Origin: a phage
Sequence record: MZ956761.1
DNA: 64,000 nucleotides
Strand: one strand, 5' to 3'
Made by a program: the position numbers and the translations under genes. Every line of letters starts with the position of its first letter. Positions within the stretch are counted from its first letter, which is position 1. Positions 1,815 through 43,522 of this stretch are shown in pieces. The notes below the pieces were generated by a model that was not told the origin of the DNA, made no database searches, and worked only from the letters and a program-made list of their open reading frames with translations.

Positions 1815-2015
1815 ATGAATCCTGAATCTAAATTATCGCAACGAATTGCTGAAGCTCGTCGTCAGTTCTTTGAAAATATGATAGCCCAAGGTATTGATGA
1901 CGAAGTTTTTCTAAACTGGTTTTGGAATCACAAATATTCAAGTTGCTCAGGAGCAATATTAATATCAGCTGCAATGATGTACGAAGGCTGGAAGGGTGCC
2001 AAACAGTTTAGCTAA
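1815..2015 (+). CDS. hypothetical protein
   Basis: 66 aa ORF, ATG start, followed by terminator hairpin. Confidence 0.45.
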   Translation: MNPESKLSQRIAEARRQFFENMIAQGIDDEVFLNWFWNHKYSSCSGAILISAAMMYEGWKGAKQFS

Positions 2016-2033
2016 GGGCTTCGGCCCTTTTTG
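2015..2033 (+). terminator. rho-independent terminator
   Basis: AGGGC-TTCG-GCCCT hairpin + TTTTT. Confidence 0.75.
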
Positions 2034-2067
2034 GATAATAAAATTTTAACGCAATTGAGGATAATGT

Positions 2068-2394
2068 ATGACTATTCAAATTAAAAACGCCATCAATTCT
2101 TATGCATATGATAAAGTAGTCTCTTTGCTAGAAAAAGGCAATATTGTAACTCCTCAAATTTTGGATAAATGGGAAAAAGAGCTTCATCAGACGATGAAAC
2201 AGAATGATCAGAAAATTGGGCGCAATACTGTCCGCGAATTGTTAGTTCAATATATCTTGTCAGAATTTGATGTTAAAGCTTTTGGTGTAGAATCTAAAGC
2301 TTATCAAAAGCATGAAATTTCCGATAAAACTATTCGTCGCATGAAAAATCAACGCAAGAAAAAATTTGCTGACCTGAAAATTGCTAAGGTATGA
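2068..2394 (+). CDS. hypothetical protein
   Basis: 108 aa ORF, ATG after GAGGATAA. Confidence 0.5.
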   Translation: MTIQIKNAINSYAYDKVVSLLEKGNIVTPQILDKWEKELHQTMKQNDQKIGRNTVRELLVQYILSEFDVKAFGVESKAYQKHEISDKTIRRMKNQRKKKFADLKIAKV

Positions 2395-2612
2395 ATATGA
2401 ACGAAGCTCTTATTAACGATTTACGTCTTGCCGGATATGAAGTAAATACAAATAGCATTGGTTTAACTCAAATTGAAGGAAATGGATTCATCCTTGAGTA
2501 TGAATTTAGCCAATGGTGGTTATACGCTAATTATGGCGAATTGATTGAATACGTTGACCAGTTTGATTCACTAGATGCAGCTCTTGAAGCGGCTAAGTTG
2601 ATGAATGCATGA
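2391..2612 (+). CDS. hypothetical protein
   Basis: 73 aa, ATGA start/stop overlap with upstream ORF. Confidence 0.5.
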   Translation: MNMNEALINDLRLAGYEVNTNSIGLTQIEGNGFILEYEFSQWWLYANYGELIEYVDQFDSLDAALEAAKLMNA

Positions 2613-2878
2613 AATTTATTAATATTTCTATTACTATTGAAAATTATGGCATTTTCTATGTTGATCAATACATGAAAATTTCATTTTTCCCAAATAAGAC
2701 TGGTGTTGGATATTGGGAAAGCCATGTTTCTGAATTAAATGAAAGTGAATATGCTAGCACACATGAAAAGTTTTTAGACTTTTTATATCATGCTGATTTA
2801 ACTAGTCATTATATAGATATTCATGAATTTAAAAAGATGATGGAGAAAGTGTTCCAAGCATACTGCTTACTTAGATAA
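2609..2878 (+). CDS. hypothetical protein
   Basis: 89 aa, ATGA overlap coupling. Confidence 0.5.
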   Translation: MKFINISITIENYGIFYVDQYMKISFFPNKTGVGYWESHVSELNESEYASTHEKFLDFLYHADLTSHYIDIHEFKKMMEKVFQAYCLLR

Positions 2879-2956
2879 CTAATATCCTCTATGCTTTAAG
2901 ATAGATCTTCAAATATTATGATATAATAGATCTATGAATTGAGCTAAGAGGTGAAA

Positions 2957-3514
2957 ATGTCAGAAACTAAGCCTAAATATAATTACGTAAACAATAAAGA
3001 GCTTTTACAAGCTATTATTGATTGGAAAACAGAATTAGCAAATAATAAAGACCCAAATAAAGTAGTTCGTCAGAATGATACTATCGGATTAGCCATTATG
3101 CTTATTGCAGAAGGCTTATCTAAACGTTTCAACTTTTCAGGATACACCCAATCCTGGAAACAAGAAATGATTGCAGATGGTATAGAAGCTTCTATTAAGG
3201 GGCTTCATAATTTTGATGAAACGAAATATAAAAACCCACATGCATATATAACTCAAGCTTGTTTTAATGCATTCGTCCAACGTATTAAAAAAGAACGTAA
3301 GGAAGTTGCAAAGAAATACAGTTACTTCGTTCACAATGTCTATGACAGTCGTGACGACGATATGGTTGCGTTAGTAGATGAAACTTTTATTCAAGACATC
3401 TACGATAAAATGACGCATTACGAAGAATCAACCTATAGAACACCGGGGGCTGAAAAGAAAAGTGTTGTAGACGATTCTCCTAGTTTGGATTTTTTATATG
3501 AGGCTAACGATTAA
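2957..3514 (+). CDS. 55: late-transcription sigma factor gp55
   Basis: 185 aa from ATG 2957; matches recalled T4 gp55 ([23 protein letters not shown]...). Confidence 0.95.
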
Positions 3515-3716
3515 CCTCTCCGGATTCTTGGAAGAAATACCTGAAGTTGAAGCTATTCCCTATTTACTTAAAATGTATCTCAGGGAAGTTTTAGCTCTTG
3601 ACATTGATATTGATCCAGAAAATCCGTATGATACCGCTTTTAAATCTAATGGTGTAGAATTAAACTATCGGTATCATTTAACAGATGATGATTTTTATTT
3701 TATATTAGAGAAATAA
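3498..3716 (+). CDS. hypothetical protein
   Basis: 72 aa ORF overlapping gene 55 3' end. Confidence 0.45.
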
Positions 3717-3717
3717 T

Positions 3718-4035
3718 ATGACTGATAAACCCGAAATTAATGATGAAGTGGAAAAGCTTATTTCTTCTATTGAAGAAAAGAACCGTCTTGAAGCAGAAAG
3801 AAAAGCAAATAAGTTATTGTCTAAAAACAAACGCGAACTGAACCGTCTTTATAAGCACGCTCAGATTGCAGCTGAAAACAATAATTTTGCTCAATACGAA
3901 TATGCTATCAAGAAAAGTCGGGATATTCTAAAACAGCCATATAACGATGAACTCATTAGTATTCTTTGGAAGACTACTAGATCGCAGATTGAGGATATGA
4001 TTGATGCTTACACATGTAAAATTCAAGCGTCTTAA
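3718..4035 (+). CDS. hypothetical protein
   Basis: 105 aa, ATG after GAGAAATAAT. Confidence 0.5.
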   Translation: MTDKPEINDEVEKLISSIEEKNRLEAERKANKLLSKNKRELNRLYKHAQIAAENNNFAQYEYAIKKSRDILKQPYNDELISILWKTTRSQIEDMIDAYTCKIQAS

Positions 4036-4207
4036 AATTAATGCAGGATTTACTGAATCTTTGAATGGTCATCTTTGTGTGAAAATTTCTGAAAAAGAAT
4101 ACCATGATAGTTCAATTAAAGAAGTTAATCCTCCTATTGTAAGAGCAGACCCTAATATGAAAGTGTGGGTTGATTCTTATCAAGTCAAAAAATGGTGGCA
4201 ACTGTGA
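4004..4207 (+). CDS. hypothetical protein
   Basis: about 67 aa ORF, first ATG in frame. Confidence 0.4.
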   Translation: MLTHVKFKRLKINAGFTESLNGHLCVKISEKEYHDSSIKEVNPPIVRADPNMKVWVDSYQVKKWWQL

Positions 4208-4210
4208 AAG

Positions 4211-4384
4211 ATGAACGCCCAGACTTGTGAAATAGATTATAATAAAATTCGTTCCTCTAAAGTAGAAATGATGAGGCGCTTTAAAGAGTCTCATGATAAA
4301 GCTAAAGCAGAAGGAACTATAACATATAAGCGCATAAAATTTAGAAGCTCTAATGAGCCTCTGTATGGTGTATTATGCGGATAG
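4211..4384 (+). CDS. hypothetical protein (57 aa)
   Basis: ATG ORF ending at GGAGC-TTCG-GCTCC hairpin. Confidence 0.3.
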   Translation: MNAQTCEIDYNKIRSSKVEMMRRFKESHDKAKAEGTITYKRIKFRSSNEPLYGVLCG

Positions 4385-4450
4385 GAGCTTCGGCTCCTAT
4401 ATTGCTTTATAAATTTTTGGTAAAATAAACCAAAACAATGAGGATATTAA

Positions 4451-5653
4451 ATGAAAGTATGCATTTTTATGGCTCGAGGTCTTGAAGGTTGTGGTGTAAC
4501 TAAATTTTCTCTTGAGCAACGTGATTGGTTTATTAAAAATGGTCATGAAGTAACTTTGGTTTATGCTAAAGATAAATCATTTACTCGTAACTGCGCGCAC
4601 GATTATAAATCATTTTCAATTCCGGTTTTATTGGCAAAAGAATACGATAAAACACTTAAGCTGGTAAATGATTGTGATATTCTAATTATCAATTCAGTTC
4701 CTGCTACTTCAGTTGAAGAAGACACTATTAATAACTATAAAAAAATTATTGATAACATTAAACCTTCGGTTCGTGTTGTAGTTTATCAACATGACCATTC
4801 TTCTCTTTCTTTGCGACGAAATTTGGGATTAGAAGAAACTGTTCGTCGAGCTGATGTTATTTTTAGCCATTCTGATAATGGTGATTTTAATAAAGTTCTG
4901 ATGAAAGAATGGTATCCAGAAACTGTTTCTCTGTTTGATGATATTGAAGAAGCGCCGACAGTATATAACTTTCAGCCTCCTATGGATATTGCGAAGGTTC
5001 GGTCAACCTACTGGAAAGATGTTTCTGAAATTAACATGAATGTCAACCGTTGGATTGGTCGTACGACTACATGGAAGGGTTTTTATCAGATGTTTGATTT
5101 TCACGAAAAACATCTTAAACCTGCAGGACTAAGTACTATTATGGAAGGTCTGGAACGTTCTCCAGCATTCATTCCTATTAAAGAAAAAGGAATTCCATAC
5201 GAGTATTATCGTCTTCATCAAGTAGACCAAATTAAAATTGCTCCTAATTTGCCAACGCAAATTCTTGACCGTTATGTAAATAGCGAAATGCTTGAGCGTA
5301 TGAGTAAATCCGGATTTGGTTATCAGTTGAGTAAGTTGGATAAAAAATATCTACAACGTTCTTTAGAATATACTCATCTCGAGCTTGGTGCATGTGGAAC
5401 AATTCCGGTATTTTGGAAATCTACTGGCGAAAATTTAAAATTCCGTGTTGATAATACTCCTTTGACCTCACATGATAGCGGTATCATTTGGTTTGATGAA
5501 AATGATATGGAATCAACATTCGAGCGTATTAAAGAACTGTCATCTGACCGAGCTCTTTATGACCGTGAGCGAGAAAAAGCGTATGAATTTTTGTATCAGC
5601 ATCAAGATTCAAGCTTCTGCTTTAAAGAACAGTTTGACATTATTACAAAATAA
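4451..5653 (+). CDS. agt: DNA alpha-glucosyltransferase
   Basis: 400 aa; N-terminus matches recalled T4 alpha-gt; strong SD GAGGA. Confidence 0.92.
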   Translation: MKVCIFMARGLEGCGVTKFSLEQRDWFIKNGHEVTLVYAKDKSFTRNCAHDYKSFSIPVLLAKEYDKTLKLVNDCDILIINSVPATSVEEDTINNYKKIIDNIKPSVRVVVYQHDHSSLSLRRNLGLEETVRRADVIFSHSDNGDFNKVLMKEWYPETVSLFDDIEEAPTVYNFQPPMDIAKVRSTYWKDVSEINMNVNRWIGRTTTWKGFYQMFDFHEKHLKPAGLSTIMEGLERSPAFIPIKEKGIPYEYYRLHQVDQIKIAPNLPTQILDRYVNSEMLERMSKSGFGYQLSKLDKKYLQRSLEYTHLELGACGTIPVFWKSTGENLKFRVDNTPLTSHDSGIIWFDENDMESTFERIKELSSDRALYDREREKAYEFLYQHQDSSFCFKEQFDIITK

Positions 5654-19715: not shown

Positions 19716-21143
19716 GTGGTAGAAATTATTCTTTCTCATCTCATATTTGATCAAGCTTATTTTTCAAAAGTTTGGCCATATATGGATTCAGAATATTTTG
19801 AAAGTGGTCCAGCTAAAAATACATTCAAATTAATTAAATCTCATGTTAATGAGTACCATAGCGTTCCATCTATTAATGCGTTAAATGTTGCATTAGAAAA
19901 TAGTTCATTTACTGAAACAGAATATTCTGGTGTAAAAACACTTATTTCAAAACTAGCTGATTCTCCGGAAGACCACAGTTGGTTAATAAAAGAAACAGAA
20001 AAATATGTTCAGCAAAGGGCGATGTTTAATGCTACGTCTAAAATAATCGAAATTCAAACTAATGCTGAGCTTCCTCCGGAAAAACGAAATAAGAAAATGC
20101 CGGACGTTGGTGCTATTCCTGACATCATGCGTCAAGCATTATCTATTTCATTTGATAGCTACGTTGGTCATGATTGGATGGATGACTACGAAGCACGCTG
20201 GCTATCTTATATGAATAAAGCTCGTAAAGTTCCATTTAAACTTCGTATTTTGAATAAAATTACAAAAGGCGGAGCTGAAACAGGAACACTGAACGTTTTA
20301 ATGGCTGGTGTTAACGTTGGTAAGTCATTAGGATTGTGTTCATTAGCAGCAGATTATTTGCAGCTCGGACATAATGTTCTTTACATTTCCATGGAAATGG
20401 CAGAAGAAGTTTGTGCTAAGCGTATTGACGCTAATATGCTTGATGTTTCTCTTGATGACATTGATGATGGGCATATTTCTTACGCTGAGTATAAAGGAAA
20501 AATGGAAAAATGGCGTGAGAAATCTACTCTCGGTCGTTTAATCGTTAAGCAATATCCCACTGGTGGAGCAGACGCTAATACATTTCGATCGCTTTTAAAC
20601 GAATTGAAGCTCAAGAAGAATTTTGTTCCAACAATCATTATTGTTGACTATCTAGGTATTTGTAAATCTTGCCGCATCAGAGTTTATTCAGAAAATAGTT
20701 ACACAACTGTTAAAGCTATCGCAGAGGAATTGCGTGCTCTGGCTGTTGAAACCGAAACTGTTCTTTGGACTGCAGCGCAGGTTGGTAAGCAAGCTTGGGA
20801 TTCTTCTGATGTTAACATGAGCGATATTGCAGAATCTGCCGGTCTTCCAGCAACAGCCGATTTTATGCTTGCGGTCATTGAAACCGAGGAGCTAGCAGCT
20901 GCTGAACAACAACTCATTAAGCAAATCAAATCACGATATGGTGATAAGAATAAATGGAATAAGTTTTTGATGGGTGTTCAAAAAGGAAATCAGAAATGGG
21001 TAGAAATTGAACAAGATTCTACTCCAACTGAAGTAAGTGAAGTAGCAGGTTCACAGCAGATTCAGGCTGAACAGAATCGCTATCAAAGAAACGAATCTGC
21101 TCGAGCCCAGTTAGATGCTTTAGCGAATGAATTAAAATTTTAG
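19716..21143 (+). CDS. 41: replicative DNA helicase gp41
   Basis: 475 aa, GTG start; Walker A GVNVGKS; matches recalled T4 gp41. Confidence 0.95.
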   Translation: MVEIILSHLIFDQAYFSKVWPYMDSEYFESGPAKNTFKLIKSHVNEYHSVPSINALNVALENSSFTETEYSGVKTLISKLADSPEDHSWLIKETEKYVQQRAMFNATSKIIEIQTNAELPPEKRNKKMPDVGAIPDIMRQALSISFDSYVGHDWMDDYEARWLSYMNKARKVPFKLRILNKITKGGAETGTLNVLMAGVNVGKSLGLCSLAADYLQLGHNVLYISMEMAEEVCAKRIDANMLDVSLDDIDDGHISYAEYKGKMEKWREKSTLGRLIVKQYPTGGADANTFRSLLNELKLKKNFVPTIIIVDYLGICKSCRIRVYSENSYTTVKAIAEELRALAVETETVLWTAAQVGKQAWDSSDVNMSDIAESAGLPATADFMLAVIETEELAAAEQQLIKQIKSRYGDKNKWNKFLMGVQKGNQKWVEIEQDSTPTEVSEVAGSQQIQAEQNRYQRNESARAQLDALANELKF

Positions 21144-21173
21144 TTTACAAGCCGACAAGACTATGGTATAGTA
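21140..21173 (+). promoter_or_regulatory. T4 early promoter with flanking inverted repeat
   Basis: GTTTACA -35, TGgTATAGT -10; CAAGACT/AGTCTTG inverted repeat around -10. Confidence 0.7.
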
Positions 21174-21201
21174 GTCTTGTTGGTTAAATGAGGAGATTGT
21201 T

Positions 21202-21384
21202 ATGGAATTGGTAAAGGTAGTTTTTATGGGGTGGTTTAAGAACGAAAGCATGTTTACTAAAGAAATCACAATGATGAAAGATGACGTTCAATGGGCTACT
21301 AATCAATATGCTGAAGTTAATAAAGCACTAGTTAAAGCTTTCATTGATGACAAGAAAGTATGCGAAGTGGATTGCCGAGGATAA
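21202..21384 (+). CDS. dmd: Dmd, antitoxin against RnlA/LsoA
   Basis: 60 aa; near-identical to recalled T4 Dmd (MELVKVVFMGWFKNESMF...). Confidence 0.9.
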   Translation: MELVKVVFMGWFKNESMFTKEITMMKDDVQWATNQYAEVNKALVKAFIDDKKVCEVDCRG

Positions 21385-21385
21385 T

Positions 21386-21643
21386 ATGCATATCGTTTTA
21401 TTTAAACCTACTCCGTATAACGTCAGGAAAAATACTCAATTCAAAGCACTTATCGCAGATACGTGGGAATTGGTATTAGATATTCCAGCAGAAGAAAGCC
21501 CTCCATTTGGTCGAGTGGAATTTATTAAGTTTGCTGTGCGCCCTACAAAGCGGCAGATTCGCCAATGCAAAAGATACTTTCGTAAAATCGTCAAGTTAGA
21601 GAAACAGTTTGTAACATGTGATTATACAGAAGTTTTAAAATAG
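21386..21643 (+). CDS. tifA: 61.4-position protein, likely TifA (ToxN inhibitor)
   Basis: 85 aa ORF immediately downstream of dmd; assignment by synteny and size from memory. Confidence 0.5.
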   Translation: MHIVLFKPTPYNVRKNTQFKALIADTWELVLDIPAEESPPFGRVEFIKFAVRPTKRQIRQCKRYFRKIVKLEKQFVTCDYTEVLK

Positions 21644-21676
21644 CTGTTTACAAGCTGATAGAGTTGTGTTATAGTA
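21643..21676 (+). promoter_or_regulatory. T4 early promoter with inverted repeat
   Basis: GTTTACA -35, TGtTATAGT -10; GCTGATAGA/TCTATCAGC inverted repeat spans -10. Confidence 0.7.
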
Positions 21677-21706
21677 ATTCTATCAGCTAATCGCGGAGAA
21701 AAGAAA

Positions 21707-21961
21707 ATGATGCTAGTTAATAGAGAATATCAGTTTAAATCAGAAGAAGATTTGGAAAAATTCGCGAGTGGTTGTGAACTGAATAGACGCACAGCTAAAG
21801 TCATAGGATTAAAACCCTTTACAGTTCTAGATTGTGAAGTTTCTAAATTCCGCAGAGGGTGTTCTATTAGCGGTCATGCTCTGGTTGATGGGAACACATT
21901 TTTCTTTGTTTTTAGCGTCAGAGAACTTTTATTGATTAACGAACTTGAGGAAATAAAATAG
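21707..21961 (+). CDS. hypothetical protein
   Basis: 84 aa, ATG after GAGAAAAGAAA. Confidence 0.5.
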   Translation: MMLVNREYQFKSEEDLEKFASGCELNRRTAKVIGLKPFTVLDCEVSKFRRGCSISGHALVDGNTFFFVFSVRELLLINELEEIK

Positions 21962-22025
21962 TTTACTTTTGTTTTAAACATGTTATTATAGACTTATCAA
22001 AACAAACGAGTAAATGGAGAACAAA

Positions 22026-22208
22026 ATGTCTAAAGTATCAGGTTATCAATTATTAACACAAGAACAACGTTCAGAGATGGATTCTTTACAAGAACGGTGT
22101 CAGCATAGAAATAACGCACTTGATTCATTTTTATTAGTTGAATATGAAAACTTGTGCTCTAGACTTGAAAAAGAATATGTTCATCAACATGAAGGAGGAG
22201 AAGAATGA
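22026..22208 (+). CDS. hypothetical protein
   Basis: 60 aa from ATG 22026 after GGAGA (an in-frame ATG at 22014 is also possible). Confidence 0.45.
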   Translation: MSKVSGYQLLTQEQRSEMDSLQERCQHRNNALDSFLLVEYENLCSRLEKEYVHQHEGGEE

Positions 22209-22282
22209 AACTGAAATCACCAATTATTGCAATTTGTCTGTTTGCTTCTACTAGTGTTTACTTTTGTTGAAAATTGAGATAC

Positions 22283-22290
22283 TATAAATA
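22283..22290 (+). promoter_or_regulatory. candidate late promoter (TATAAATA) upstream of sp
   Basis: exact TATAAATA about 20 nt upstream of the sp start. Confidence 0.4.
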
Positions 22291-22311
22291 TAAACTACTG
22301 AGGAGATTATC

Positions 22312-22605
22312 ATGAAAAAATTTGTTTTTGCTGCAATTTTTGCTTTGGCTTCTTGTACTGCTCAGCCTGCTATGGCGGGTTATGATAAAGATTTGTGTGA
22401 ATGGTCTATGACTGCAGATCAGACTGAGGTTGAAACTCAAATTGAAGCAGATATTATGAATATCGTTGAGCGTGATCGTCCTGAAATGAAAGCTGAAGTG
22501 CAAAAACAGCTTAAGTCTGGTGGTGTAATGCAGTATAATTATGTTCTGTATTGCGATAAAAACTTTAATAATAAAAATATCATCGCTGAAGTGGTAGGTG
22601 AGTAA
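22312..22605 (+). CDS. sp: Spackle periplasmic protein Sp
   Basis: 97 aa; signal peptide ...AQPAMA; matches recalled T4 Sp. Confidence 0.9.
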   Translation: MKKFVFAAIFALASCTAQPAMAGYDKDLCEWSMTADQTEVETQIEADIMNIVERDRPEMKAEVQKQLKSGGVMQYNYVLYCDKNFNNKNIIAEVVGE

Positions 22606-22617
22606 TTAGAGGTTAGT

Positions 22618-22974
22618 ATGTATAGTTCTGAATTTTCATATTTAAAAATGGAAAAAATTTCATACGATTTTATAGATGAAAAGGTTTATTACAGCTTCCA
22701 TGAACCACGTTTTAATAGTGAGGTTGGGTTTATTGTAGTAAAAGACAATTTCATTTTAAAAATATATTCGGCATTAAAGGATTTTCACTACGAAAATATT
22801 AACCTAAAATTTGATAAAGAAAACGTTCGTAATTGTGCAGTAACAATTACAGGAAATAAAGGTACATGCGTTATGCTATCTGATGAAATTAATGATTTGC
22901 TAAATGATGCCGAAAAGGTTGTTGTTCCATCGATTGATGACCAAATTTTTAATGCTTTTATGAATAGAGGTTAA
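22618..22974 (+). CDS. hypothetical protein
   Basis: 118 aa, ATG after GAGGTTAGT. Confidence 0.5.
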   Translation: MYSSEFSYLKMEKISYDFIDEKVYYSFHEPRFNSEVGFIVVKDNFILKIYSALKDFHYENINLKFDKENVRNCAVTITGNKGTCVMLSDEINDLLNDAEKVVVPSIDDQIFNAFMNRG

Positions 22975-22975
22975 T

Positions 22976-23140
22976 ATGAAAACATATAAAGAATTTATTA
23001 AAGAAGATATGGTCGCTGGAGATTCAGGTGGTAATCCTGAAAATATCTCCACTGGAACAACGTCAGGCGCTGTAGTAAATAAAGGTCCTGAACAGATTCC
23101 TAAAAAGAAAAAAGAGGAATCTAAAGAAAAAGAAGAGTAA
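22976..23140 (+). CDS. hypothetical small acidic/lysine-rich protein (54 aa)
   Basis: ATG right after upstream stop; below ORF-track cutoff. Confidence 0.35.
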   Translation: MKTYKEFIKEDMVAGDSGGNPENISTGTTSGAVVNKGPEQIPKKKKEESKEKEE

Positions 23141-23142
23141 AA

Positions 23143-24171
23143 ATGTCATCAATACCTTGGATTGATAATGAGTTTGCATACCGTGCATTAGCTCATTTAC
23201 CTAAATTCGCACAAGTAAATAATAGTTCAACTTTTAAATTACGGTTTAGATGTCCTGTTTGTGGAGATTCAAAAACCGATCAAAATAAAGCCCGTGGATG
23301 GTATTATGGTGATAATAATGAAGGAAATATTCATTGTTATAACTGTAACTATCATGCACCAATCGGAATATATTTAAAGGAGTTTGAACCTGATTTATAT
23401 CGTGAGTATATCTTTGAAATAAGAAAAGAAAAAGGTAAAAGTCGTCCAGTAGAAAAACCTAAAGAACTTCCTAAACAACCTGAGAAGAAAATAATTAAAT
23501 CTCTTCCGTCATGCATTAGATTAGATAAACTGGCGGAAGACCATCCAATTATAAAATATGTAAAAGCTCGTTGTATTCCAAAGGATAAATGGAAATATCT
23601 TTGGTTTACAACTGAATGGCCTAAATTAGTTAATAGCATAGCACCCGGAACATATAAAAAGGAAATACCTGAGCCTCGTCTTGTTATTCCAATTTATAAT
23701 GCTAATGGAAAAGCTGAGTCTTTTCAAGGACGTGCATTAAAGAAAGATGCTCCTCAAAAATATATCACCATCAAAGCTTATCCCGAGGCAACAAAAATCT
23801 ATGGAGTCGAACGAGTCAAAGATGGTGATGTATATGTTCTAGAAGGACCTATAGATTCACTTTTTATTGAAAATGGTATAGCTATTACGGGTGGTCAATT
23901 AGACCTAGAAGTTGTTCCATTTAAAGATAGACGTGTGTGGGTCTTAGATAATGAACCTCGTCACCCTGACACTATTAAACGAATGACTAAATTAGTTGAT
24001 GCAGGAGAAAGGGTTATGTTTTGGGATAAATCTCCCTGGAAATCAAAAGATGTTAATGATATGATTAGAAAGGAAGGTGCAACCCCTGAACAAATTATGG
24101 AATATATGAAAAATAATATTGCCCAAGGGTTGATGGCTAAAATGCGGCTATCTAAATATGCTAAGATTTAA
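23143..24171 (+). CDS. 61: DNA primase gp61
   Basis: 342 aa; zinc-ribbon CPVCGD...CYNC; matches recalled T4 gp61. Confidence 0.95.
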   Translation: MSSIPWIDNEFAYRALAHLPKFAQVNNSSTFKLRFRCPVCGDSKTDQNKARGWYYGDNNEGNIHCYNCNYHAPIGIYLKEFEPDLYREYIFEIRKEKGKSRPVEKPKELPKQPEKKIIKSLPSCIRLDKLAEDHPIIKYVKARCIPKDKWKYLWFTTEWPKLVNSIAPGTYKKEIPEPRLVIPIYNANGKAESFQGRALKKDAPQKYITIKAYPEATKIYGVERVKDGDVYVLEGPIDSLFIENGIAITGGQLDLEVVPFKDRRVWVLDNEPRHPDTIKRMTKLVDAGERVMFWDKSPWKSKDVNDMIRKEGATPEQIMEYMKNNIAQGLMAKMRLSKYAKI

Positions 24172-24368
24172 ATTAACCCAACCAAAGCAAATGCTAAATC
24201 TACGAATGTATCAAGAGTAATTACTGGAATATTAACACCATGAGCAATAGCAATTGGTGATAAAACAAAATTCCAGAGTAAAATTCCTACCGTAGCAGAA
24301 ATAGTAAAAGCTATACGCTTTTTATTACCTTTGATGGCATTAACAAGTGCCATTAATTTTTGTACCAT
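24168..24368 (-). CDS. hypothetical small membrane protein, convergent with gene 61
   Basis: 66 aa minus-strand ORF; strong SD TAAGGAGG 4 nt before ATG; two hydrophobic segments. Confidence 0.5.
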   Translation of the reverse strand: MVQKLMALVNAIKGNKKRIAFTISATVGILLWNFVLSPIAIAHGVNIPVITLDTFVDLAFALVGLI

Positions 24369-32959: not shown

Positions 32960-32993
32960 GTTGTTTACTTCCTCGGTTAGTTGTGGTATTATA
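32960..32993 (+). promoter_or_regulatory. T4 early promoter
   Basis: GTTTACT -35, 17-nt spacer, TGgTATTAT. Confidence 0.7.
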
Positions 32994-33019
32994 ACACCAT
33001 AGCTACTGAGGATAATAAA

Positions 33020-34065: not shown

Positions 34066-34098
34066 TAGTTTACAAACTCTTGGGACCAGAGTATAATG
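34065..34098 (+). promoter_or_regulatory. T4 early promoter with -10 inside a hairpin
   Basis: GTTTACA -35, TATAAT at 34092-34097 flanked by GGGACCA/TGGTCCC inverted repeat. Confidence 0.7.
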
Positions 34099-34141
34099 GT
34101 CCCGTGGAGTATAAAATCTTTTTAACAAGTGAGAGATAACT

Positions 34142-35018: not shown

Positions 35019-35234
35019 ATGAAACGTAAAATTGTTCAGAATTGCACTAATGACGAATTTGAAGATGTATTATTTGATCCAGATTTGGTAGTGGTTCAAA
35101 AGGAACATACCGTTAAGTTTACTCACTTGACTTCGGTTTATGTGTATGAAAAGATTGGTGATAAACAACCGATTTATGGTGTATTCCGTGAAATCACTGA
35201 AGACGGTACAACTTACTGGAAGGAAATTTATTAA
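35019..35234 (+). CDS. hypothetical protein (possible Cef by synteny and size)
   Basis: 71 aa, ATG after GAGGAAATTG. Confidence 0.45.
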
Positions 35235-35659
35235 TGGCTATTAAATTTGAAGTTAATAAATGGTATCAATTTAAAAATAAACAAGCTCAAGAAAATTTTA
35301 TTAAAGACCATACTGATAACGGAATCTATGCACGTCGTTTAGGTATGCATCCTTTTAAAATTTTAGATGTTGACCATCTTGGTCGTCCTACTAAAATTGT
35401 GACATCTGCTGGCACAGTTGGATATGCAACACATGGTGATATCCTTGACGAAAACTTTATCTGGCTTTCTACTAACGAAGCTGGGTTCTTTGATGAAGTG
35501 GAAAATCCATATCAGGCAGCTGAAGAGCAAGAGCAGGAAGAGAAAGAGCAAGAACAAATAGAAGATTTCACAGAATTCCCGGTCATGAAAGTTACTATTG
35601 AAAATAATGAACAGGCATGGTCCTTGTATCAGATGTTGAAAGCTCACTTTAAGGAATAA
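35234..35659 (+). CDS. hypothetical protein (possible GoF/ComC-alpha by synteny and size)
   Basis: 141 aa; acidic Glu/Gln-rich segment. Confidence 0.45.
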
Positions 35660-43347: not shown

Positions 43348-43381
43348 GTTGTTTACAAGACTGTTCCTCTGTGGTATTATT
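43348..43381 (+). promoter_or_regulatory. T4 early promoter (member of the repeat family)
   Basis: GTTTACAAGACTGTTC as at 15427; TGgTATTAT -10; 9-bp inverted repeat CTGTTCCTC/GAGGAACAG bridges the promoter and the SD. Confidence 0.7.
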
Positions 43382-43408
43382 ACCCTATCAACTACGGAGG
43401 AACAGAAA

Positions 43409-43522
43409 ATGAAAAAGATTGTTAAAGCTATATGGAATGTAGTTATAATACTAGTAGTTTTGAGTATATTCCCAATCGTTTTAATGATTGATGTATTAAA
43501 CGCTTACTTTGGATTTATGTGA
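43409..43522 (+). CDS. hypothetical small membrane peptide (37 aa)
   Basis: ATG after GGAGGAACAG; hydrophobic. Confidence 0.35.
   Translation: MKKIVKAIWNVVIILVVLSIFPIVLMIDVLNAYFGFM

What the first reader, a model, noticed from the sequence alone, without database searches (positions are those of the whole stretch)
21202..23140. Counter-defence neighbourhood: dmd and tifA followed by unassigned small ORFs
dmd (antitoxin against RnlA/LsoA) and the adjacent 85-aa ORF at the tifA (ToxN-inhibitor) position lie with sp between genes 41 and 61. Four other small ORFs here (21707-21961, 22026-22208, 22618-22974, 22976-23140) have no function I can assign. Anti-defence genes cluster in such regions, so these are plausible additional inhibitors of host immunity. 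Two early promoters in this block carry inverted repeats around their -10.
Basis: partly seen in the sequence, partly recalled or inferred. Interest (0 to 1): 0.5.

Follow-up and report, generated by a model that had tools for sequence, protein, structure and literature searches.

The report
T4-type anti-toxin island with swappable cassettes
This stretch of a T4-like phage is the already described counter-defence region between the helicase and primase genes, here with two extra plug-in gene cassettes, and one tiny conserved gene in it carries the signal that T4 uses to load proteins into its head, which appears not to have been noted before.

Summary
The window is Escherichia phage ADUt (100% identity), a Tequatrovirus. 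Between gene 41 and gene 61 lie dmd, tifA, an 84-aa ORF, a 60-aa ORF, sp, a 118-aa ORF and 61.1. Two early promoters carry strong inverted repeats across their -10 boxes.

Srikant et al. 2022 called this region a possible anti-TA island. The promoter hairpins fit the PeSL motifs of Arbiol 2010 and Comeau 2014.

The four unassigned ORFs:
- **118-aa ORF:** a one-domain paralogue of AdfA (anti-DarT factor A, T4 61.2), not its orthologue. It has Asn where T4 has the DarT1-neutralising His.
- **84-aa ORF:** its N-terminal half is homologous to GoF, a predicted LSm-like, RNA-linked family.
- **60-aa ORF:** an acidic ORFan found in only 21 phage records.
- **61.1:** starts with MKTYKEFIKE, close to the IPII/IPIII capsid targeting sequence, with a conserved I/L-x-E protease site. 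It continues as a copy of the first 28 residues of mature gp23. I predict it is packaged, cleaved and injected.

The 84-aa and 60-aa ORFs are promoter-bounded cassettes, present or absent among close relatives at short direct repeats. No anti-defence function is shown for them.

The parts
21143..21185 (+). Early promoter P1 (-35 GTTTAC 21143-21148, -10 TATAGT 21167-21172). A 15-bp hairpin (about 21150-21185) encloses the -10, immediately after the gene 41 stop codon. This is a PeSL-type composite element.
   Evidence: Stem variants in 13 related loci are only Watson-Crick or G.U pairs.
21202..21384 (+). dmd, antitoxin against RnlA/LsoA, 60 aa.
   Evidence: Pfam PF17587, E 1.3e-45, full length. 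98.3% identical to T4 Dmd.
21386..21643 (+). tifA (T4 61.4), RNA-binding inhibitor of ToxN, 85 aa.
   Evidence: 97.6% identical to T4 gp61.4. Pfam DUF7279, E 2e-20. Carries P53 T54 K55 R56 R59, required for function in PMC10853763.
21646..21688 (+). Early promoter P2 (-35 21646-21651, -10 21670-21675) with a 13-14 bp hairpin across the -10. It is the left boundary of the ORF84 cassette.
   Evidence: Cassette junction shown.
21707..21961 (+). 84-aa ORF. Its N-terminal half is homologous to the GoF N-terminal domain. It is a second GoF-like gene; the true goF lies at 35234-35656. It is an optional cassette, absent from T4.
   Evidence: PHROG 2980, E 3e-20. BLASTP 36.6% to GoF residues 7-47. hhalign probability 96.7%, E 3.9e-10, residues 3-45 against GoF 6-48. 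Found in 84 phage records.
21961..21989 (+). Early promoter P3 for the 60-aa ORF. It has only a weak A/T inverted repeat (21968-21975/21999-22006).
   Evidence: Fold z -1.4, not significant.
22026..22208 (+). 60-aa acidic ORFan (pI 4.9, net charge -6), preceded by GGAG 6 nt upstream. It is an optional cassette.
   Evidence: phrog_37915 only. 21 phage records, all at least 95% identical. No PDB, Pfam, NCBIfam or PADLOC match. Charge.
22256..22285 (+). Early promoter P4 for sp, the adfA-like gene, 61.1 and probably gene 61. In this phage TATAAATA (22283-22290) overlaps the -10.
   Evidence: The same promoter follows tifA directly in T4.
22312..22605 (+). sp (spackle), a periplasmic protein, 97 aa.
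   Evidence: Pfam PF25676, E 9e-45. 95.9% identical to T4 Sp.
22618..22974 (+). 118-aa single-domain paralogue of AdfA, labelled '61.2' in some records. It is homologous to the C-terminal domain of T4 AdfA and shares its last 14 residues.
   Evidence: Pfam AdfA PF23813, E 1.6e-8, residues 22-118 against profile positions 113-211. 36% identical to T4 AdfA 109-208. Sits in tandem after a long AdfA in GEP001, Ozark and L015. Alignment.
22976..23140 (+). 61.1, 54 aa. It has three parts: a CTS-like leader MKTYKEFIKE; a segment resembling the N-terminus of mature gp23 (DMVAGD...NKGP); and a Lys/Glu tail.

Best explanation
**What the region is.** This is the variable region between genes 41 and 61 of a Tequatrovirus. 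It is built from early-gene cassettes, each with its own sigma-70 early promoter:
- P1 drives dmd and tifA.
- P2 drives the 84-aa ORF.
- P3 drives the 60-aa ORF.
- P4 drives sp, the adfA-like gene, 61.1 and probably gene 61.

**How the cassettes move (inferred from comparison).** The 84-aa and 60-aa cassettes are gained or lost by recombination within the repeated stop-codon and -35 sequence. That sequence is AAAATAG..GTTTAC, or GTTTACTTTTGTT.

**What the hairpins do (inferred).** The hairpins across the -10 of P1 and P2 form only in read-through RNA from upstream. A transcript started at the promoter itself would begin inside the 3' arm. They most likely end, attenuate or 3'-protect those upstream transcripts, so that each cassette is expressed independently.

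**What the genes do.**
- **Dmd** neutralises the RnlA/LsoA RNases. Shown for T4; 98% identical here.
- **TifA** neutralises ToxN through a basic RNA-binding helix. Shown for T4; 98% identical here, with the key residues present.
- **Sp** is the periplasmic spackle protein. By established knowledge it blocks the tail lysozyme of superinfecting phage. That is exclusion, not counter-defence.
- **The 118-aa protein** is a one-domain AdfA paralogue. It most likely binds a DarT-type ADP-ribosyltransferase other than the DarT1 tested so far. This is inferred from family membership and from Asn at the specificity position.
- **The 84-aa protein** most likely acts on RNA, since its GoF-like half belongs to a predicted LSm-like family. 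This is a weak inference.
- **The 60-aa protein** most likely works by binding a host protein or mimicking nucleic acid, as small acidic phage proteins often do. This is a guess from composition alone.
- **gp61.1** is predicted to be taken into the prohead core by its IP-type targeting leader. It would then be cut by the gp21 protease after Glu10, kept in the head and injected with the DNA. Nothing on 61.1 has been tested.
For: **Identity and layout**
- The window is 100% identical to phage ADUt, and the gene order matches its annotation.
- T4 has dmd, 61.4, sp, 61.2 and 61.1 only.

**Mosaic structure**
- Twelve related loci were compared. The 84-aa cassette is present or absent; the 60-aa cassette was seen only together with it.
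- AdfA occurs as long alone, long plus short in tandem, or short alone.
- Junctions fall exactly at AAAATAG(n)GTTTAC and GTTTACTTTTGTT.

**Promoters and hairpins**
- Early promoter pattern: 20 matches in the window against 4.6 expected.
- Hairpins. They are less stable on the - strand (-13.1 and -12.6 kcal/mol) because the + strand uses G.U pairs.
- P1 stem variants in 13 loci are G-C, G.U or A-U, never A.C.
- The PeSL concept, with hairpins overlapping the -10 and acting as terminators in RB49, comes from PMC2839356. PeSLs in the T4/PST pair come from PMC4122927.

**AdfA paralogue**
- Evidence: - T4 61.2 is adfA, and residue 164 (His against Arg) decides DarT1 binding (PMC11257639).

**GoF-like ORF**
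- Evidence: - The LSm-like fold family is described in PMC12152347.

**61.1**
- IPII and IPIII start MKTYQEFIAE; IPI starts MKTFKEF.
- CTS residues 4 and 7 (targeting) and 8 and 10 (processing) are defined in PMC9026906. All four are identical in 61.1.
- The motif MK[TS][YF]x[ED][FV] hits only 61.1 in six frames of the window. In 77.5 kb of T4 it hits only 61.1, IPI, IPII and IPIII.
- Glu10 is invariant, and position 8 is I, L, V or M in 16 homologues.
- RB69 61.1 has a different 46-residue leader but keeps LFE|DMVAGD.
- Similarity to gp23 residues 57-93: local alignment score 80 against 29 +/- 4.3 in shuffles, with 0 of 2000 reaching it. PDB hit 6uzc, E 0.0085.
- gp21 cuts after Glu in I/LxE motifs (PMC12991175).
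- ipI, ipII and ipIII are also classed as early RNA in T4 omics data.
Against: - No experiment bears on the 84-aa, 60-aa, 118-aa or 61.1 proteins.
- gp61.1 protein was not classified (NA) in the T4 time-course proteome (PMC9697503). I found no virion mass-spectrometry report of it.
- The mature 61.1 peptide is slightly acidic (pI 5.0), unlike the basic internal proteins.
- The 118-aa protein lacks the His that makes AdfA neutralise DarT1. [quoted passage not shown]
- Homology of the 84-aa ORF to GoF is supported only for residues 3-45. Wild-type GoF itself has no demonstrated function.
- Both AlphaFold models were of low confidence (pLDDT 62.5 and 65.6). Fold searches gave nothing.
- The hairpins are not followed by a U run, and the scan found no intrinsic terminator. 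Termination is therefore not shown for these elements.
- The PeSL figure for the T4/PST pair places stem-loops just upstream of the promoter. Here they span the -10, which was the common position in RB49/phi1.
Confidence: 0.7

Rival explanations
1. All four unassigned ORFs are further inhibitors of host immunity, clustered here because anti-defence genes cluster.
For: - dmd, tifA and adfA are adjacent, experimentally supported anti-toxin genes in T4.
- The 118-aa ORF is in the AdfA family.
- The two cassettes are variable accessory early genes, as anti-defence genes often are.
- 61.1 has the leader of the internal proteins, one of which (IPI*) blocks the GmrSD restriction enzyme (PMC3012670).
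Against: - There is no homology to any known anti-defence protein for the 84-aa, 60-aa or 61.1 products.
- sp is an exclusion gene. RB69 carries imm.1 and imm in the same slot. Cargo at this site is therefore not limited to counter-defence.
- 61.1 is conserved in every locus examined, which is unlike a host-specific accessory gene.
Confidence: 0.2
2. The 84-aa and 60-aa cassettes are neutral or selfish passengers. They spread because they carry their own promoter and recombinogenic ends, and give the phage no benefit.
For: - Patchy distribution: 84 and 21 of 50,697 phage records.
- Clean presence or absence among near-identical genomes.
- PeSL mini-circles form spontaneously in RB49/phi1.
Against: - The 84-aa ORF is kept intact at about 57% identity in a second group of phages such as SP18. 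This implies selection on the protein.
- Both ORFs have good Shine-Dalgarno sites and strong early promoters.
Confidence: 0.2
3. gp61.1 is not packaged. It acts in the cytoplasm as a mimic of the gp23 cleavage region. It could be a competing substrate that tunes or occupies the gp21 protease. It could equally be a decoy for a host sensor that recognises the capsid protein or the protease.
For: - It copies the gp23 site and the following 28 residues.
- gp21 activity is itself sensed by CBASS enzymes through cleavage of I/LxE-type loops (PMC12991175).
- Its RNA is early, before proheads exist.
Against: - The first ten residues match the IP targeting leader rather than gp23. That leader is sufficient for packaging of foreign proteins.
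- ipI, ipII and ipIII RNAs are also classed early.
Confidence: 0.15
4. The inverted repeats act on DNA, not RNA. They would be operators for a dimeric regulator, or cruciforms that switch the promoters off.
For: - They are centred on the -10 hexamers. Binding or extrusion there would block RNA polymerase.
- The stems are not followed by U runs.
Against: - The five hairpin-bearing promoters in the window have unrelated stem sequences. This argues against one sequence-specific binding protein.
- Stem variation keeps G.U pairs, which pair only in the + strand RNA and would be A.C mismatches on the other strand.
Confidence: 0.15

Closest known systems
T4 'anti-TA island' dmd-tifA-(sp)-adfA (Srikant et al. 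2022, eLife, PMC9391042; LeRoux lab, PMC11257639)
   Same: Same position between genes 41 and 61. dmd, tifA, sp and 61.1 are 96-98% identical to T4.
   Different: This phage has two extra promoter-bounded cassettes between tifA and sp. It lacks the 208-aa AdfA and carries only the 118-aa paralogue.
AdfA, anti-DarT factor A (T4 gp61.2, RB69 gp61.2; Pfam PF23813)
   Same: Significant match to the C-terminal half of the family profile. The last 14 residues are identical, and the motif VGxIxVKDNxI is shared.
   Different: It is half the length, with one domain. It is only 36% identical. It coexists with long AdfA in some phages, so it is a paralogue. It has Asn at the position of His164 (T4) or Arg164 (RB69).
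PeSL, promoter-early stem-loop cassettes of T4-type phages (Arbiol 2010, PMC2839356; Comeau 2014, PMC4122927)
   Same: An early promoter plus a stable stem-loop in an intergenic space after a stop codon. It flanks small accessory ORFs that differ between close relatives, and indel junctions lie inside the element.
   Different: Only P1 and P2 have significant stems; P3 and P4 do not. The stems are not G/C runs as in RB49. Terminator activity and mini-circle formation were not tested for these elements.
GoF / MotB.1 / Frd.2 family of predicted LSm-like fold proteins (Kim et al. 2025, PMC12152347)
   Same: Residues 3-45 of the 84-aa ORF align with GoF residues 6-48 (hhalign probability 96.7%). 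It is an early gene with its own early promoter.
   Different: It lacks the acidic C-terminal domain of GoF. The second half shows no demonstrable homology. My model (pLDDT 62) did not reproduce a five-stranded barrel.
T4 internal proteins IPI, IPII, IPIII and their capsid targeting sequence (Mullaney and Black 1996, as reviewed in PMC9026906)
   Same: The 61.1 leader MKTYKEFIKE matches MKTYQEFIAE at 8 of 10 positions. These include residues 4, 7, 8 and 10, which were shown to matter. It ends in an I-x-E protease site.
   Different: The protein is much smaller, 44 residues after cleavage, and not basic overall. Its body resembles the gp23 N-terminus rather than a folded inhibitor. It lies outside the IP loci. 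Packaging is untested.

Membership tests
Dmd (PF17587) | Full-length match to the 60-residue family profile above the curated cut-off. | tested here: met
   153.9 bits against a cut-off of 27, residues 1-60 of 60. 98.3% identical to T4 Dmd.
Dmd (PF17587) | Binds and inhibits the RnlA/LsoA toxins. | not testable with these tools
   Inferred from 98% identity to the characterised T4 protein.
TifA (T4 gp61.4) | Homologous to T4 gp61.4 and located directly after dmd. | tested here: met
   97.6% identical over 85 residues. The start codon lies 1 nt after the dmd stop codon.
TifA (T4 gp61.4) | Pro-Thr cap followed by basic residues (P53 T54 K55 R56 R59), needed for RNA binding and ToxN inhibition (PMC10853763). 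| tested here: met
   The sequence reads ...VRPTKRQIRQ..., with P53, T54, K55, R56 and R59.
AdfA (PF23813) | Match to the family profile above the gathering score. | tested here: met
   34.6 bits against a cut-off of 27, E 1.6e-8. Only profile positions 113-211 of 211 are covered. Precomputed PF23813 on all five homologue clusters.
AdfA (PF23813) | Full two-domain architecture of about 208-212 residues. | tested here: not met
   118 residues. There is no significant similarity to the N-terminal half of T4 AdfA (score 32 against 28 +/- 5).
AdfA (PF23813) | Orthologous position as the single gene between sp and 61.1. | tested here: inconclusive
   It is alone there in this phage. In GEP001, Ozark and L015 it follows a long AdfA, so the two are paralogues.
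AdfA (PF23813) | His at position 164, which confers DarT1 binding. | tested here: not met
   Asn in the aligned column. T4 has His and RB69 has Arg.
AdfA (PF23813) | Binds and neutralises a DarT toxin. | not testable with these tools
GoF / LSm-like fold family | Sequence homology to the GoF N-terminal domain (residues 1-91). | tested here: inconclusive
   Homology is significant for residues 3-45 against GoF 6-48 only. PHROG 2980 covers residues 7-82, E 3e-20.
GoF / LSm-like fold family | Bent five-stranded antiparallel beta-sheet (LSm/SH3-like). | tested here: inconclusive
   The AF2 model has two helices and four strands at pLDDT 62.5. The Foldseek search found only its own homologue.
PeSL (promoter-early stem-loop) | Sigma-70-type early promoter in an intergenic space after a stop codon, with an A/T-rich upstream region. 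| tested here: met
   Present at P1 to P4.
PeSL (promoter-early stem-loop) | Stable stem-loop within or next to the promoter. | tested here: met
   Met for P1 (z -5.9) and P2 (z -4.0). Not met for P3 (z -1.4) or P4 (z +0.8).
PeSL (promoter-early stem-loop) | Association with insertions and deletions between close relatives, with junctions in the element. | tested here: met
   Junctions lie at AAAATAG(n)GTTTAC and GTTTACTTTTGTT.
PeSL (promoter-early stem-loop) | Terminator activity and mini-circle formation. | not testable with these tools
   The consensus scan found no intrinsic terminator. These properties need experiments.
T4 internal proteins (CTS-bearing, packaged) | N-terminal 10-residue capsid targeting sequence, with key residues 4 and 7. 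| tested here: met
   MKTYKEFIKE against MKTYQEFIAE; Tyr4 and Phe7 are identical. The motif is specific to 61.1 and the three IPs in 141 kb scanned.
T4 internal proteins (CTS-bearing, packaged) | gp21 cleavage motif I/L-x-E at residues 8-10. | tested here: met
   The motif here is I8-K9-E10. Glu10 is invariant in 16 homologues. RB69 has L-F-E.
T4 internal proteins (CTS-bearing, packaged) | Presence in the virion and injection with the DNA. | not testable with these tools
   The protein was not classified in the T4 infection proteome. No virion data were found.

The most novel reading that the evidence does not exclude
gp61.1 is an unrecognised fourth capsid-targeted internal peptide of T-even phages. 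It is conserved in every T4-like locus examined here. It would be loaded into the prohead by an IP-type leader, or in RB69 by a different propeptide. The gp21 protease would cut it at a conserved I/L-x-E|D site. It would then be injected with the DNA. Its body copies the first 28 residues of mature major capsid protein gp23. It might therefore act as a pre-delivered decoy for a host factor or immune sensor that recognises the capsid N-terminus or the protease site. Separately, the 118-aa AdfA paralogue and the two cassettes may neutralise toxins not yet matched to any phage inhibitor.
Probability: 0.3. Interest if true: 0.65.

Novelty: new member of a known kind. Interest (0 to 1): 0.4.

Why it matters
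The region itself is known, so the gain is in the details.

- **Annotation.** The gene labelled '61.2' in about 295 phage records is not AdfA. It is a one-domain paralogue with a different residue at the position that sets DarT specificity. Presence or absence surveys of adfA should score the two genes separately. The short form is a ready candidate for the 'other DarT homologue' proposed by the LeRoux group.
- **Natural knock-in series.** Cassette gain and loss at exact promoter repeats gives phages that differ by one small gene. These are ideal for host-range comparisons.
- **61.1.** The leader is a cheap, sharp prediction. T4 has been mined for decades, and a further head-delivered peptide resembling the capsid protein's new N-terminus would interest both head-assembly and phage-defence researchers.

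Tried and rejected
- **Sequence searches.** Searches of the PDB were empty or spurious for the 84-aa, 60-aa and 118-aa proteins; zinc-finger hits for the 84-aa ORF had E about 1. NCBIfam and PADLOC gave nothing.
- **Exhaustive HMMER search with the 84-aa ORF.** It found three proteins. One was a spurious eukaryotic zinc-finger protein. One was a 395-aa protein with five repeats resembling the C-terminal half, which I did not follow up.
- **RB69 61.1 as a truncated copy of the gp23 propeptide.** Rejected: score 24 against 20.7 +/- 4.1, with 1021 of 5000 shuffles as good.
- **A late promoter for sp and 61.1.** TATAAATA at 22283 is present here but not in T4 or GEP001. I do not rely on it.
- **Internal duplication of long AdfA.** Only suggestive (22 of 3000 shuffles).
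- **IMG/VR scan with Dmd.** It returned only five loci, too few for covariation statistics.
- **Literature searches for 61.1 as a capsid-targeted protein.** Nothing was found in the open-access library. Older subscription papers could not be checked.


Full report
**Identity of the sequence.** Window 21100-23200 is 100% identical to Escherichia phage ADUt (OQ466432.1), a Tequatrovirus. It is 96-98% identical to many other T4-like phages. Gene 41 (helicase) ends at 21143 and gene 61 (primase) starts at 23143.

- dmd (21202-21384) matches Pfam Dmd over its full length, E 1.3e-45. It is 98.3% identical to T4 Dmd.
- The 85-aa ORF at 21386-21643 is 97.6% identical to T4 gp61.4. Srikant et al. renamed that gene tifA (PMC9391042).
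- This TifA carries P53, T54, K55, R56 and R59. Guegler et al. showed these are needed for RNA binding and ToxN neutralisation (PMC10853763).
- sp (22312-22605) is 95.9% identical to T4 spackle.
- The two inverted repeats are real. Their arms are 21152-21163/21172-21183 and 21653-21665/21676-21688, around the TATAGT hexamers found by the promoter scan.
- As + strand RNA the repeats fold at -21.8 and -18.0 kcal/mol, with z-scores of -5.9 and -4.0 against shuffles.

**The neighbourhood idea is already published.** Srikant et al. wrote that dmd, tifA and the nearby 61.2 (adfA) may form an anti-TA island. They added that other genes in the region are attractive antitoxin candidates.

**The region is a mosaic of promoter-bounded cassettes.**
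- T4 has only dmd, 61.4, sp, 61.2 and 61.1 here.
- Across twelve related loci, the 84-aa ORF is present or absent. The 60-aa ORF was seen only together with the 84-aa ORF.
- The AdfA slot has three states: long gene alone, long plus short in tandem, or short alone.
- There are four early-type promoters in the block, at 21143, 21646, 21961 and 22256.
- Aligning the intergenic spaces shows where each cassette joins. The 84-aa cassette lies between two copies of AAAATAG(n)GTTTAC, which is a stop codon plus a -35 box.
- The 60-aa cassette lies between two copies of GTTTACTTTTGTT.
- In T4 the sp promoter follows tifA directly, with the same sequence.

This fits the PeSL model of Arbiol et al. (PMC2839356) and Comeau et al. 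(PMC4122927). In that model, early promoters with stem-loops flank small accessory ORFs and mediate their exchange. In RB49/phi1 the stem-loops most often lay between the -35 and -10 boxes or overlapped the -10, as they do here.

**The hairpins are a recurrent feature of the window.** Five of 19 + strand early promoters have a strongly stable hairpin enclosing the -10: 21143, 21646, 32963, 34068 and 43351. Their stem sequences are unrelated to one another.

**The hairpins more likely act in RNA than in DNA.**
- The + strand hairpins are more stable than the - strand versions, because they use G.U pairs.
- In 13 loci the variable P1 stem positions show G-C, G.U or A-U and never A.C. This is limited evidence, but it points to the sense RNA.
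- A transcript started about 7 nt after the -10 would begin inside the 3' arm. The hairpin therefore exists only in read-through RNA from gene 41 or from tifA.
- I infer an insulating role: termination, attenuation or 3'-end protection.
- Against this, no U run follows the stems, and the terminator scan found none.

**The 118-aa ORF (22618-22974).**
- It passes the Pfam gathering score for AdfA, anti-DarT factor A. Only profile positions 113-211 are matched.
- It is 36% identical to T4 AdfA residues 109-208. The last 14 residues, SIDDQIFNAFMNRG, are identical.
- With that tail removed it is still significantly similar to the C-terminal half (2 of 3000 shuffles). It is not similar to the N-terminal half.
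- In GEP001, Ozark and an IMG/VR contig it follows a 210-aa AdfA. In slur02 it accompanies a T4-type long AdfA. It is therefore a paralogue, although PP01 labels it 61.2.
- It occurs at 80% identity or more in about 295 phage records.
- The LeRoux group showed that residue 164 decides DarT1 binding: His in T4, Arg in wild-type RB69 (PMC11257639). In my alignment this protein has Asn there, and one divergent short form has His.
- The same paper reports that deleting T4 adfA has no phenotype on DarTG1. It proposes that such alleles target other DarT homologues.
- I commit to the same mechanism for this protein, direct binding of a DarT-type toxin, with modest confidence.

**The 84-aa ORF (21707-21961).**
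- It matches PHROG 2980, 'goF mRNA metabolism modulator'. It also matches T4 GoF residues 6-48 (hhalign probability 96.7%).
- The phage also has a true goF at 35234-35656.
- Kim et al. 2025 predict an LSm-like beta-barrel for the GoF N-terminal domain. They show that the GoF(D25Y) mutant stabilises RNA carrying the gene 41 leader, but wild-type GoF does not (PMC12152347).
- The ORF occurs in 84 phage records. Thirteen of these are at about 57% identity in a second lineage, so it is a real protein under selection.
- An RNA-related role is the best guess. A link to immunity is not shown.

**The 60-aa ORF (22026-22208).**
- It has a GGAG 6 nt upstream of its start codon. It is acidic, with pI 4.9 and net charge -6.
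- It occurs in only 21 phage records, all at least 95% identical.
- Nothing else was learned about it.

**61.1 (22976-23140).** This was the most interesting result.
- A PDB sequence search hit the T4 major capsid protein gp23 at residues 59-94 (E 0.0085).
- The ungapped alignment runs from the gp21 cleavage site onwards: FLTE|AEIGGDHGYNATNIAAGQTSGAVTQIGP against FIKE|DMVAGDSGGNPENISTGTTSGAVVNKGP, 16 of 36 residues identical.
- The local alignment score is 80, against 29 +/- 4.3 for shuffles.
- The first ten residues, MKTYKEFIKE, match the capsid targeting sequence of IPII and IPIII, MKTYQEFIAE. They also match the start of IPI.
- According to the review by Kuhn and Thomas, residues 4 and 7 of this leader govern targeting and residues 8 and 10 govern processing (PMC9026906). 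All four are identical in 61.1.
- The pattern MK[TS][YF]x[ED][FV] occurs once in six frames of the 64-kb window, at 61.1. In 77.5 kb of T4 it occurs only at 61.1, IPI, IPII and IPIII.
- In 16 homologues Glu10 and the following DMVAGD are conserved, and position 8 is I, L, V or M.
- RB69 61.1 is 92 residues with an unrelated leader. It still reads LFE|DMVAGD.
- The gp21 protease cuts after Glu in I/LxE motifs (PMC12991175).

I therefore predict that gp61.1 is taken into the prohead, cleaved after Glu10 and delivered with the DNA. Its early RNA class is no obstacle, because ipI, ipII and ipIII are classed the same way. Three points count against the prediction:
- The protein was not classified in the T4 infection proteome.
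- The mature peptide is not basic.
- No experiment exists.

Some databases already call homologues 'major capsid domain-containing protein'. I found no paper noting the targeting leader.

**Guilt by association is limited here.** In RB69 the slot between tifA and sp holds imm.1 and imm, which are superinfection-exclusion genes. Two further small ORFs sit between adfA and 61.1. sp itself is an exclusion gene. The slot accepts early accessory genes of several kinds.

**Verdict.**
- The block is a known kind of region.
- It contains new members of known families: a short AdfA paralogue, a GoF-like protein, a rare ORFan cassette, and a likely fourth capsid-targeted peptide.

Noticed in passing
window 32963-33015, 34068-34120, 43351-43410: Three further early promoters outside the finding have very stable hairpins enclosing their -10 boxes (-23.7, -19.7 and -22.6 kcal/mol; z -5.1, -4.3 and -4.8). 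Their stem sequences are unrelated to those at 21143 and 21646.
   Followed up: partly
window 35234-35656: The true goF gene is here, 89% identical to T4 GoF. The phage therefore carries two GoF-like genes.
   Followed up: partly
window 24168-24368 (- strand): A 66-aa hydrophobic ORF on the opposite strand overlaps the end of gene 61. It is annotated as hypothetical in ADUt and ZCEC15. T4 has dam between genes 61 and 56 instead. RB69 has a 65-aa ORF of similar size and opposite orientation there.
   Followed up: no
L017 (RB69, NC_004928) 1818-5399: The RB69 version of the locus has two extra ORFs between gene 41 and dmd. It has imm.1 and imm between tifA and sp. It has two small ORFs between adfA and a 92-aa 61.1.
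   Followed up: partly
protein P0029 (395 aa, metagenomic): This protein has five tandem repeats of about 73 residues resembling the C-terminal half of the 84-aa ORF (motif GC...F.FVFRVRDL; E 7.8e-7). The half without GoF homology may be an independent repeat domain.
   Followed up: no
window 23100-23140; proteins P0002 and P0004: The Lys/Glu tail of 61.1 is encoded by an A-rich run. T6-type homologues (62 aa) have a different, still Lys-rich tail, consistent with a frameshift in that run.
   Followed up: no
window 22283-22290: The T4 late-promoter consensus TATAAATA overlaps the -10 of the sp promoter in this phage. It is not present at the same place in T4 or GEP001.
   Followed up: partly
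window 22930-22978, compared with L005 2296-2341: The conserved last 14 codons of both AdfA forms contain the Shine-Dalgarno sequence of the next gene (AATAGAGGTTAATATG). A near copy (TTAGAGGTTAGTATG) precedes the short gene where the long one is missing. This hints that deletion of the long gene went through this repeat.
   Followed up: partly
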